A stretch of 64,000 bases of DNA, from the NCBI RefSeq assembly GCF_000027125.1, contig NC_017626.1, one strand, 5' to 3'. How positions within the stretch are numbered: the stretch's first letter is position 1; each line of letters begins with the position of its first letter. Both the position numbers and the translations under genes were made by a program. Positions 45,426 to 46,182 of the stretch are shown here, piece by piece. The notes beneath the pieces were generated by a model that saw only the letters and a program-made list of their open reading frames with translations, made no database searches and was not told the DNA's origin. The stretch is from Escherichia coli 042 (GTDB lineage Bacteria; Pseudomonadota; Gammaproteobacteria; Enterobacterales; Enterobacteriaceae).

Positions 45426-45665
45426 TCTGTGGCGTGATATCAGAAACGACATTTAATAATCGCCTTCAAAATAAATTTGTTTATACATTGTCATGTATAT
45501 TTTAAGTGAAAGTGAATTATTCACATAAAATAAAAACACATAAATAAATTTACATAACTTGACGCAAAGTGTTGTTGCGATTGGAATATTAAATCGTATC
45601 ATCGAAAACGGTTCTGAGGGGGAACTCTTCTTTGCTCGGTGATATCGCTCCCCTGAAGAACCAAT

Positions 45666-45741
45666 GCCGACTTAGCTCAGTAGGTAGAGCAACTGACTTG
45701 TAATCAGTAGGTCACCAGTTCGATTCCGGTAGTCGGCACCA
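45666..45741 (+). tRNA. tRNA-Thr (anticodon UGU), phage-encoded
   Basis: 76 nt hand-folded cloverleaf: 7-bp acceptor stem, anticodon stem ACTGA/TCAGT, loop CTTGTAA, T-loop TTCGATT, 3' CCA. Confidence 0.75.
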
Positions 45742-45744
45742 TAT

Positions 45745-45819
45745 GCGGGTATCGTATAATGGCTATTACCTCAGCCTTCCAAGCTGATGATGCGGGTTCG
45801 ATTCCCGCTACCCGCTCCA
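45745..45819 (+). tRNA. tRNA-Gly (anticodon UCC), glyT-like, phage-encoded
   Basis: 75 nt; anticodon stem TCAGC/GCTGA, loop CTTCCAA; near-identical to remembered E. coli glyT except acceptor-stem changes; 3' CCA. Confidence 0.8.
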
Positions 45820-46182
45820 GCATTTGAAACAAGCCTTATTGTATTGCGGCACTGGCGTATTTTTTTATTACGTGGGAGCAGGTTGTTTTGAAAAAGCATT
45901 CTGTTCTCTGGCTATGATTTGAGGCCGGGTGTAGCCTCAGTGCTGATTTTTTACGGCAGCAGAATGGTGCATTATCGGTGGAGATTTTGTATTTCCTGGC
46001 AGGGTCGGTGATGCATCATTCTGGTGTTGTAAAAGCACCGCAGAGGCGTTCCTCAGGGCGAGGGTGGTTTAAAGAGTCGGTTTAGCGGGAAACCACAGTA
46101 TCCATACGGCACGGAATACTTCGGGAGGCACCCGACGCCTCGGTTTTATAACAATTAAATAATTCATCCCTTAATTGACCAA

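What the first reader, a model, noticed from the sequence alone, without database searches (positions are those of the whole stretch)
45560..45870. Two phage-encoded tRNAs (Thr-UGU, Gly-UCC) downstream of Q
Hand folding gives two canonical cloverleaves with encoded CCA ends, 3 nt apart, preceded by a plausible promoter (TTGACG at about 45,568). They occupy the slot where Stx-type lambdoid phages carry tRNA genes, which I recall as ileZ-argN-argO, but the anticodons read here are different. The Gly tRNA is nearly identical to host glyT as I remember it, which suggests host capture.
Basis: seen in the sequence. Interest (0 to 1): 0.45.

Follow-up and report, generated by a model that had tools for sequence, protein, structure and literature searches.

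The report
Host-derived tRNA pair in Rac prophage
Two intact tRNA genes (Thr-UGU and Gly-UCC), copied from the bacterium's own thrU-glyT operon, sit between the late-gene regulator and the lysis genes of a Rac-type prophage; the cassette is real but ordinary, being present in about one in six complete E. coli genomes and in several published phages.

Summary
ARAGORN and Rfam both call tRNA-Thr(UGU) at 45666-45741 and tRNA-Gly(UCC) at 45745-45819, on the + strand, each with an encoded CCA end and separated by 3 nt (TAT). The Thr gene is 76/76 identical to K-12 thrU. The Gly gene is glyT with one compensated acceptor-stem pair (C6:G67 to U6:A67).

They lie in a full-length Rac-type prophage at ttcA, 362 nt after a Q-like (DUF1133) gene and about 780 nt before the holin. 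This is the layout annotated in Stx phage 933W: Q, pR', terminator, pT, tRNAs, terminator, lysis genes.

The fused Thr-TAT-Gly junction occurs in 876 of 5,426 complete E. coli genomes, in at least 120 IMG/VR contigs and in published phages (phi467, 683R6, JLK-2012, PhiR47_1). It is often appended to ileZ/argN-type tRNAs.

Prophage ORFs use ACA about 2-fold and GGA about 1.4-fold more than the flanking host ORFs. The likeliest role is therefore extra supply of two tRNAs whose cognate codons the prophage over-uses, from a dedicated promoter plus Q read-through.

tRNA-Thr(UGU) is a known target of P2 Old and PARIS, but this allele keeps every mapped sensitivity determinant, so a resistance-type counter-defence is not supported. 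Already known; low interest.

The parts
44767..45303 (+). Q-like late antiterminator gene (DUF1133 family)
   Evidence: PHROG 753 'anti-termination protein Q-like' at 4e-78. Pfam DUF1133 at 8e-103 plus a weak Phage_antitermQ hit. Annotated 'antitermination protein Q' in phage 683R6.
45311..45339 (+). Putative late promoter (PR'-like): TTGCAA, 17 nt, TGcTTCAAT (extended -10). Inferred from sequence only.
   Evidence: Read from the sequence. The block CTGCTTCAAT...TACGCTTCGCAAAGCTGTATCGCGAGG is almost invariant even in relatives only about 78% identical. It stays with the Q gene where the downstream DNA differs.
45398..45427 (+). Intrinsic terminator ending the Q module (tR'-like)
   Evidence: Terminator scan: AACCCGCCATTGAGCGGGTT followed by TTGTTGTTTC. 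The hairpin is conserved with loop variation. Homology breakpoints cluster at 45422-45432. It resembles the terminator annotated after pR' in 933W.
45559..45564 (+).
   Evidence: Conserved in 12 of 13 aligned Rac-type relatives. A possible partner, TGGAAT, lies 17 nt downstream, but the scan did not call it.
45575..45602 (+). Best-supported tRNA promoter (pT-like): TTGCGA, 16 nt, TATCAT
   Evidence: Called by the scan with 9 of 12 matches. The -10 element (TATCAT, TATTAT or TAATAT) lies 8-12 nt before the leader hairpin in nearly all Thr-first cassettes, whatever lies further upstream. 933W annotates a comparable pT, TTGCAG...TTATTAT.
45610..45662 (+). 5' leader hairpin directly before tRNA-Thr: GGUUCU/AGAACC stem, GA/GA internal loop, GGGG/CCCC stem
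   Evidence: MFE fold. The consensus structure from 20 variants has 10 pairs, 5 of them with compensatory changes; for example, columns 8-55 show CG 11, UA 5 and UG 2. The variants are listed.
45666..45741 (+). tRNA-Thr(UGU), CCA encoded; 76/76 identical to host thrU
45742..45744 (+). TAT spacer
   Evidence: The spacer is TAT in 116 of 120 related loci.
45745..45819 (+). tRNA-Gly(UCC), CCA encoded; host glyT with the compensated pair U6:A67
45919..45950 (+). Terminator-like hairpin plus T-run; likely end of the tRNA transcription unit
   Evidence: Terminator scan. The T-run is conserved in the alignment.
45950..46033 (+). Conserved hairpin of about 33 bp in the late leader; function unknown
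46181..46208 (+). Strong intrinsic terminator upstream of the lysis genes
   Evidence: Terminator scan: AACCGCCGTATCAGGCGGTT followed by TTTTTTTT.
46596..47769 (+). Lysis cassette: holin essD-like 46596-46811, lysozyme 46811-47308, Rz-like 47305-47769
   Evidence: PGAP annotation of the segment that is 100% identical over 44400-46900. ORFs.

Best explanation
These are two functional, phage-borne elongator tRNA genes. Their ancestor was captured from the host thrU-tyrU-glyT-thrT-tufB operon and then lost tyrU and all spacer DNA, leaving thrU-TAT-glyT. The cassette sits in the accessory-gene slot of the late operon of a Rac-type lambdoid prophage. It lies downstream of the Q-like gene and that gene's own promoter and terminator module, and upstream of further terminators and the holin. 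It is probably transcribed in two ways. One is from a dedicated sigma-70 promoter (TTGCGA-16-TATCAT) whose transcript begins with a conserved hairpin. Unlike the host thrU promoter, this promoter has no G+C-rich discriminator. The other is Q-antiterminated read-through during lytic growth. Maturation would use host RNase P, RNase E and 3' exonucleases, and no CCA addition is needed. Its likeliest function is to raise the supply of tRNA-Thr(UGU) and tRNA-Gly(UCC) while many phage genomes are being expressed. These tRNAs read ACA and GGA, and the prophage uses those codons about 2-fold and 1.4-fold more than the neighbouring host genes. Shown here: gene identity, intactness, origin, position and distribution. 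Inferred: the promoters, expression, processing and the benefit.
For: The genes are called by two independent tools. Thr is 76/76 identical to thrU. Gly is 73/75 identical to glyT, and its two changes form a compensated pair. The host operon has the same Thr(UGU)-then-Gly(UCC) order, and the flanks are compatible with a simple deletion: the host has CACCA-t... and ...at-GCGGG, the phage has CACCA-TAT-GCGGG. The TAT spacer in 116 of 120 loci points to a single origin. Selection for structure is visible. 105 of 119 related loci keep every cloverleaf pair. The only common substitutions are two D-loop changes in Thr and the compensated 6:67 pair in Gly. G.U intermediates of that pair are seen (5 loci with T6:G67). 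For codon use, ACA is 8.3 per 1000 codons in 26 host ORFs against 16.4 in 32 prophage ORFs (p = 9e-6). It is the third largest excess of all codons. GGA is 9.9 against 14.3 (p = 0.0015). The architecture parallels the one annotated in 933W. The -10 element and leader hairpin are conserved in front of tRNA-Thr in otherwise unrelated contexts, including downstream of stx2f and of a methylase gene. tRNA-ThrU is described as low-abundance, and restoring ACA decoding is what rescued cells in PMC12445682. That thrU and glyT are single-copy sole decoders of ACA and GGA is my own knowledge of E. coli tRNA genetics and was not tested here.
Against: The codon enrichment is not specific. AGA, AGG and ATA are enriched as much or more, yet this prophage carries no tRNA for them. 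The codon counts rest on crude ORF calls and on only 26 host ORFs. There are no expression data. The promoters are consensus matches, and the scan found no more promoter-like sites than in shuffled sequence (3 found against 3.6 expected). The cassette is dispensable: 84% of complete E. coli genomes lack it, and K-12, whose Rac is truncated, has only the host operon copy.
Confidence: 0.6

Rival explanations
1. Counter-defence by replenishment. The cassette is retained because tRNA-Thr(UGU) and tRNA-Gly are preferred targets of tRNA-directed immune effectors, and phage-driven overproduction buffers their loss during infection or induction.
For: [quoted passage not shown] It is also a prime target of PARIS AriB (PMC12409363). 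The toxSAS FaRel2 selects tRNA-Gly and tRNA-Thr, with Gly2 the most enriched (PMC11559606). Related arrays add an Asn tRNA (JLK-2012) or a tRNA with anticodon UUU, and tRNA-Lys(UUU) and tRNA-Asn(GUU) are the other AriB targets. [quoted passage not shown]
Against: The window's alleles keep every mapped sensitivity determinant. These are C28-U29-G30 paired with C40-A41-G42, A37, a 5-bp anticodon stem, U36AAUC|A41, and acceptor pairs 1:72, 2:71, 4:69 and 5:68 (sequence, compared). In PMC12445682, overexpressed host tRNA-ThrU gave little to no protection against Old. Gly is not among the tRNAs that paper lists as cleaved. FaRel2 comes from a Firmicute. The Thr+Gly combination is explained more simply by the gene order of the host operon.
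Confidence: 0.15
2. Selectively neutral passenger. The pair is a hitch-hiking relic that persists because it is small, and its conserved sequence serves mainly as a homology patch where lambdoid phages recombine.
For: Homology breakpoints between phages pile up exactly at the cassette edges: starts at 45661 in 37 loci and ends at 45820 in 48 loci. The cassette occurs next to many different Q genes, toxins and lysis modules. Some copies are visibly decaying, for example p1054c with C33 and G1.U72, and several singleton broken pairs. Most E. coli genomes do without it.
Against: 105 of 119 copies keep an intact cloverleaf. The frequent substitutions are compensated or lie in loops. Thr remains 100% identical to thrU while its flanks have diverged completely. 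tyrU and all spacer DNA were removed but the two tRNAs were kept. A promoter and leader travel with the cassette.
Confidence: 0.2
3. Lysogenic conversion. The tRNAs are made constitutively in the lysogen from their own promoter and mainly benefit the host or prophage cargo, such as rare-codon-rich toxin and other accessory genes, rather than lytic growth.
For: A dedicated promoter lies downstream of the tR'-like terminator and so would not need Q. In related elements the cassette lies immediately beside toxin cargo: ArtAB-like/subtilase genes, stx2f and LT-IIb phage. A closely related prophage carries cdtABC.
Against: No expression data exist. In the window itself no cargo gene follows the tRNAs, only about 780 nt of non-coding DNA and then the holin. 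This reading overlaps with the best explanation rather than excluding it.
Confidence: 0.05

Closest known systems
pT-ileZ-argN-argO tRNA cassette of Stx phage 933W and its relatives
   Same: It occupies the same position: after Q, pR', qut and the terminator(s), and before a further terminator and the lysis genes. Both have a putative dedicated promoter. In 46 or more related loci the Thr-Gly pair is fused directly behind a tRNA 76/76 identical to ileZ and an argN-like tRNA.
   Different: The anticodons are UGU and UCC rather than CAU, UCG and UCU-type. The window carries only the two-gene form, has a structured 5' leader, and has no toxin gene downstream.
Host thrU-tyrU-glyT-thrT-tufB operon of E. 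coli
   Same: Thr is 76/76 identical and Gly 73/75, and the two genes are in the same order.
   Different: tyrU, thrT, the 8-nt and 116-nt spacers and the host promoter with its GCGC discriminator are all absent. Homology stops within 1-2 nt of the mature tRNA ends.
The same Thr-Gly pair in published phage genomes: phi467 (Stx2f; PMC5189129), vB_EcoS-683R6, vB_EcoM-606R7, vB_EcoS-689R5, PhiR47_1, JLK-2012 and SerU-LTIIb; also APEC O1 and many RefSeq genomes
   Same: The same fused genes with the same 3-nt spacer, annotated as tRNA-Thr and tRNA-Gly. 683R6 is a Rac-type phage with the same Q-tRNA-holin-trkG order.
   Different: The flanking modules differ: other Q types, toxin genes, and extra Met/Ile, Lys, Arg or Asn tRNAs.
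Nuclease-resistant tRNAs of lytic coliphages (T5 tRNA-Lys, -Thr and -Asn; the phage tRNA-Thr6 and -Thr21 of PMC12445682)
   Same: They share the anticodon (UGU) with the tRNA that P2 Old and PARIS deplete.
   Different: Those tRNAs carry changes in the anticodon arm that block cleavage. The window's tRNA-Thr has none and equals the sensitive host tRNA.

Membership tests
Bacterial elongator tRNA (Rfam RF00005) | Cloverleaf scoring above the family threshold, called by an independent tRNA finder with a 7-nt anticodon loop | tested here: met
   73.8 and 65.6 bits against a gathering score of 29. ARAGORN places the anticodons tgt and tcc at position 34.
Bacterial elongator tRNA (Rfam RF00005) | Intact universal positions (U8, A14, G18G19, U33, the T-loop TTCGA) and an encoded 3' CCA | tested here: met
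   Read directly. Thr is identical to functional thrU, and Gly differs from glyT only by a compensated pair.
Bacterial elongator tRNA (Rfam RF00005) | Expression, aminoacylation and use in translation | not testable with these tools
   This needs tRNA-seq or a Northern blot. The U6:A67 Gly allele could be tracked specifically.
Derivative of the host thrU-glyT operon | Near-identity to both host genes, in the host gene order | tested here: met
Lambdoid late-region tRNA cassette (933W type) | Location between the Q/pR'/terminator module and the lysis genes, on the late strand | tested here: met
   compared with the 933W annotation.
Lambdoid late-region tRNA cassette (933W type) | Own promoter (pT) in front of the tRNAs | tested here: inconclusive
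   A consensus match at 45575-45602 with a -10 element conserved across contexts. However, promoter-like sites are no more frequent than in shuffles, and no transcription start site is mapped.
Lambdoid late-region tRNA cassette (933W type) | Q-dependent read-through transcription | not testable with these tools
   Inferred from position only.
Counter-defence (nuclease-resistant) phage tRNA | Sequence changes at the determinants used by the nuclease or toxin. For P2 Old: an altered CNG motif plus a shortened anticodon stem. For AriB: U39 or A41. For FaRel2: acceptor pairs 1, 2, 4 and 5. | tested here: not met
   The window's Thr has C28UG30/C40AG42, a 5-bp stem, A37 and U36AAUCA41. Both tRNAs keep G1:C72, C2:G71, G4:C69 and Pu5:Py68 (compared).
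Rac-type prophage | Integration next to ttcA with intR-xisR-ralR/RalA-recT-recE-kilR-sieB-ydaSTUV ... trkG | tested here: met
   RalA sRNA at 31251-31429. Gene order in the closely related NZ_CP053079 region, which aligns to the window at 94-100% identity.

The most novel reading that the evidence does not exclude
The thrU/glyT cassette is kept in lambdoid prophages because tRNA-Thr(UGU), and perhaps tRNA-Gly(UCC), are choke points attacked by tRNA-directed immunity. The relevant effectors are P2 Old, the classic anti-lambda exclusion, PARIS AriB and toxSAS enzymes. On this reading, high-level expression free of stringent control from replicating phage genomes buffers the depletion. The rarer alleles seen in relatives would then be steps towards true resistance. 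These alleles are the anticodon-stem 42/43 changes, the D-loop C16/C20 changes, and the UUU-anticodon and Asn tRNAs added to the array.
Probability: 0.12. Interest if true: 0.6.

Novelty: already known. Interest (0 to 1): 0.2.

Why it matters
As it stands this is a routine annotation. PGAP already labels these genes in hundreds of genomes, and the kind of element, tRNA genes between Q and the lysis cassette of lambdoid phages, has been described since the 933W genome. Two points give it modest value. First, the cassette shows cleanly how a phage trims a captured host tRNA operon down to the two tRNAs whose codons it over-uses. Second, tRNA-Thr(UGU) was shown in 2025 to be the main target of P2 Old and a prime target of PARIS. 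A lambdoid prophage that doubles the thrU gene dose is therefore a natural, cheap test of whether dosage alone can blunt tRNA-cleaving immunity. The compensated Gly allele (U6:A67) gives a built-in tag for measuring expression of the phage copy.

Tried and rejected
1. I assumed the window was colinear with NZ_CP053079 so that I could borrow its gene coordinates. This was wrong: only 43881-58491 is nearly identical and the rest is a 94-98% mosaic with indels. I therefore used my own ORF calls for codon counts.

2. An Rfam search at a permissive E-value over 45250-46650 found nothing credible besides the two tRNAs.

3. A scan of one genome per species for the fused junction returned only Citrobacter braakii and a 423-bp, 0.67x-coverage contig in a Corallococcus assembly that is probably contamination. 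It says little beyond the point that the cassette is not fixed in any species representative.

4. A literature search for ileZ+argN+argO gave no papers in the held library. A search for Rac prophage + tRNA + thrU gave nothing relevant. No supplementary files were available for the Old paper, so I could not check whether tRNA-Gly(UCC) is cleaved.

5. I considered whether the TTGACG promoter could be PR' itself, with the tRNAs inside a 6S-like leader. I rejected this because the conserved promoter and terminator block immediately after Q co-segregates with Q. In addition, the tRNA promoter and leader occur far from any Q gene in other phages.

6. I considered whether the 5' leader hairpin is a relic tRNA. 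No tRNA model matches it, and its stem uses the 'CC' that would belong to a CCA end.

Full report
OBSERVATION

ARAGORN run on the whole window finds exactly two tRNA genes: tRNA-Thr (anticodon TGT) at 45666-45741 and tRNA-Gly (TCC) at 45745-45819, both on the + strand. Rfam's tRNA model scores them 73.8 and 65.6 bits against a gathering threshold of 29. Both genes end in an encoded CCA, and the spacer is the three bases TAT.

WHERE IT SITS

The window carries host genes (fnr, ogt, dbpA, ttcA) followed by a full-length Rac-type prophage integrated next to ttcA. It contains the RalA sRNA. The closely related region of E. coli K56-43-un is 100% identical over 44400-46900 and 94-99% identical elsewhere. 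Its annotated order is intR, xisR, ralR, recT, recE, kilR, sieB, ydaS/T/U/V, QueH, hokD, DUF1367, DUF1364, DUF1133, tRNA-Thr, tRNA-Gly, essD, rrrD, Rz, trkG, terminase, head and tail genes.

The DUF1133 gene at 44767-45303 is Q-like. It matches PHROG 753 'anti-termination protein Q-like' at 4e-78 and has a weak Pfam Phage_antitermQ hit. The tRNAs start 362 nt after its stop codon. The holin starts at 46596.

ORIGIN

The Thr gene is 76/76 identical to K-12 thrU. The Gly gene is 73/75 identical to glyT, and its two differences, C6 to T and G67 to A, restore a base pair.

In the host these genes lie in one operon: thrU, 8 nt, tyrU, 116 nt, glyT, 6 nt, thrT, tufB. The prophage has thrU-TAT-glyT. 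Similarity to the host stops within 1-2 nt of the mature tRNA ends. The junction is compatible with a simple deletion: the host reads CACCA-t... and ...at-GCGGG.

Among 120 related loci the spacer is TAT in 116, which argues for a single ancestral event. So 'host capture' is supported. The Thr+Gly combination is most simply explained by host gene order followed by loss of tyrU.

DISTRIBUTION

- A 57-nt query spanning the fused junction is covered in 876 of 5,426 complete E. coli genomes.
- The wider 601-bp Rac-type context is present in 169 of those genomes, including APEC O1.
- K-12 has only the host operon copy.
- Published phages carry the pair: vB_EcoS-683R6 (the same Rac-type order), phi467 (after stx2f), 606R7, 689R5, PhiR47_1, JLK-2012 and SerU-LTIIb. 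The phi467 paper mentions the loci (PMC5189129).
- An IMG/VR scan hit its 120-locus ceiling. The arrays found are Thr-Gly (61), CAT-UUU-Thr-Gly (27) and CAT-UCU-Thr-Gly (19).
- The CAT tRNA in those arrays is 76/76 identical to 933W ileZ, and the next tRNA is argN-like.
- Among one genome per species, only Citrobacter braakii has the junction, apart from a probable contaminant contig.

This is therefore a common, already annotated cassette.

ARE THE GENES MAINTAINED?

Of 119 related copies, 105 keep every cloverleaf pair. The only frequent substitutions are T16C and T20C in the Thr D-loop (about 34 loci) and the compensated 6:67 pair of Gly (about 50 loci). G.U intermediates of that pair are seen in 5 loci. 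Structure-breaking changes are rare singletons, for example the decaying copy on plasmid p1054c.

This is the pattern expected of functional tRNAs. It is not a formal rate test.

TRANSCRIPTION LAYOUT (inferred from sequence and comparison)

Directly after Q lies a block that stays almost invariant even in relatives about 78% identical. It contains TTGCAA, 17 nt, TGcTTCAAT (45311-39), and is followed by the intrinsic terminator at 45398-45427. Homology with phages that share this Q but differ downstream ends at 45422-45432. I therefore read this block as the Q-cognate late promoter and terminator module (PR'/tR'-like).

Its -10 element recurs 8-12 nt before a conserved hairpin in nearly all Thr-first cassettes. 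This includes cassettes that follow stx2f or a methylase gene and are far from any Q.

The hairpin (45610-45662) has a GGUUCY/RGAACC stem, a GA/GA internal loop and a G/C stem. Five of its 10 consensus pairs show compensatory changes.

After the tRNAs come:
- a terminator-like site at 45919-45950;
- a conserved hairpin of about 33 bp at 45950-46033;
- two further terminators at 46125 and 46181;
- the holin.

The 933W record annotates the same plan: Q, pR', qut, terminators, pT, ileZ-argN-argO, terminator, stx ... S.

One caution applies. Promoter-like sites in this region are no more frequent than in shuffled sequence, and nothing here measures transcription.

LIKELY FUNCTION

I called ORFs of at least 100 aa myself and compared codon use.

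| Codon | 26 flanking host ORFs (per 1000) | 32 prophage ORFs (per 1000) | p |
|---|---|---|---|
| ACA | 8.3 | 16.4 | 9e-6 |
| GGA | 9.9 | 14.3 | 0.0015 |

ACA shows the third largest excess of all codons. This fits the usual codon-supply explanation for phage tRNAs.

From my own knowledge, not tested here, thrU and glyT are single-copy genes and the only decoders of ACA and GGA in E. coli. It also fits that the captured operon kept these two tRNAs and lost tyrU.

The enrichment is not specific. AGA, AGG and ATA are enriched too, and this prophage has no tRNAs for them. The sample is also small.

COUNTER-DEFENCE READING

Three recent papers make this worth weighing.
- P2 Old, the classic exclusion of lambda, kills by cleaving host tRNA-ThrU (PMC12445682).
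- PARIS AriB has tRNA-Thr(UGU) as a prime target, alongside Lys(UUU) and Asn(GUU) (PMC12409363).
- The toxSAS FaRel2 selects tRNA-Gly and tRNA-Thr through acceptor pairs 1, 2, 4 and 5 (PMC11559606).

However, the window's tRNA-Thr is the sensitive host sequence. It has C28UG30 paired with C40AG42, A37, a full 5-bp anticodon stem and U36AAUC|A41. Both tRNAs keep the FaRel2 determinants.

The Old paper reports that overexpressed host tRNA-ThrU gave little to no protection. A resistance-type counter-defence is therefore not met for this allele, and only a dosage effect remains possible.

In relatives there are hints of evolution in that direction. [quoted passage not shown] None of this is in the window.

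VERDICT

The cassette is a known kind of element and this particular pair is already annotated widely, so I rate it 'already known' with low interest.

The most novel reading not excluded is dosage-based buffering against tRNA-cleaving immunity. I put that at about 0.12.

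Noticed in passing
window 45950-46033 (+): An imperfect RNA hairpin of about 33 bp lies between the tRNA cassette and the holin. It is conserved in at least 35 sequence variants from related phage loci, with many G-U to G-C/A-U exchanges and 7 pairs showing compensatory double changes. The G.U pairs make it specific to the + strand. It has no Rfam match. It could be an RNase III site in the late transcript or an unannotated sRNA.
   Followed up: partly
window 45610-45662 (+): A conserved 5' leader hairpin sits immediately before tRNA-Thr. It has a GGUUCY/RGAACC stem, a tandem GA/GA internal loop and a G/C stem. It is found behind a -10-like element in many otherwise unrelated upstream contexts. 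Its role is unknown; 5'-end protection or a processing signal are possibilities.
   Followed up: partly
window 45311-45427 (+): A probable Q-cognate late promoter and terminator module would give a short transcript of about 80 nt. This would be the counterpart of lambda 6S RNA or the StxS sRNA of Stx phages; the StxS comparison is from memory and was not tested. The block co-segregates with the DUF1133 Q-like gene.
   Followed up: partly
related loci L005, L012, L014, L015, L051 and others (IMG/VR and PhiR47_1); L007 1122-1197: The argN-like tRNA placed before Thr-Gly has a variable anticodon loop. It is CTTCTAA (Arg UCU) in 19 loci and CCTTTAA (called Lys UUU, with C33) in 27 loci, with rarer odd loops. 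The thrU scaffold itself occurs once with anticodon TCT (SerU-LTIIb) and once with TTT (L014). This suggests anticodon shifting or decay in prophage tRNAs.
   Followed up: partly
related loci L049, L072, L096 and one more; about 34 loci for the D-loop variant: Rare tRNA-Thr alleles change G42 and U43. [quoted passage not shown] A common allele changes the D-loop (U16C, U20C).
   Followed up: partly
L004 6001-7767 (plasmid p1054c); L008 1766-3668 (phi467); L007 (SerU-LTIIb); L130 3863-5963: In relatives the Thr-Gly cassette sits next to toxin cargo: subtilase-type B subunit and ArtA-like genes, stx2f, and LT-IIb phage. The near-identical K56-43-un prophage carries cdtABC type IV at its far end, outside the window.
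   Followed up: no
window 42356-43021 (+): The prophage encodes a protein annotated as epoxyqueuosine reductase QueH, a tRNA-modification enzyme, in the 98.9%-identical RefSeq region. This is an unusual prophage cargo.
   Followed up: no
window 15186-15309 (-), 23351-23446 (-), 26824-26941 (+), 31251-31429 (+), 43089-43264 (+): Rfam finds these known small RNAs at gathering score: STnc490, McaS, FnrS, RalA (the Rac RalR antitoxin) and sok.
   Followed up: no
L131 (NZ_RAVW01000911.1, Corallococcus exercitus assembly): A 423-bp contig at 0.67x coverage carries the E. coli prophage Thr-Gly junction. It is probably contamination of that assembly.
   Followed up: no
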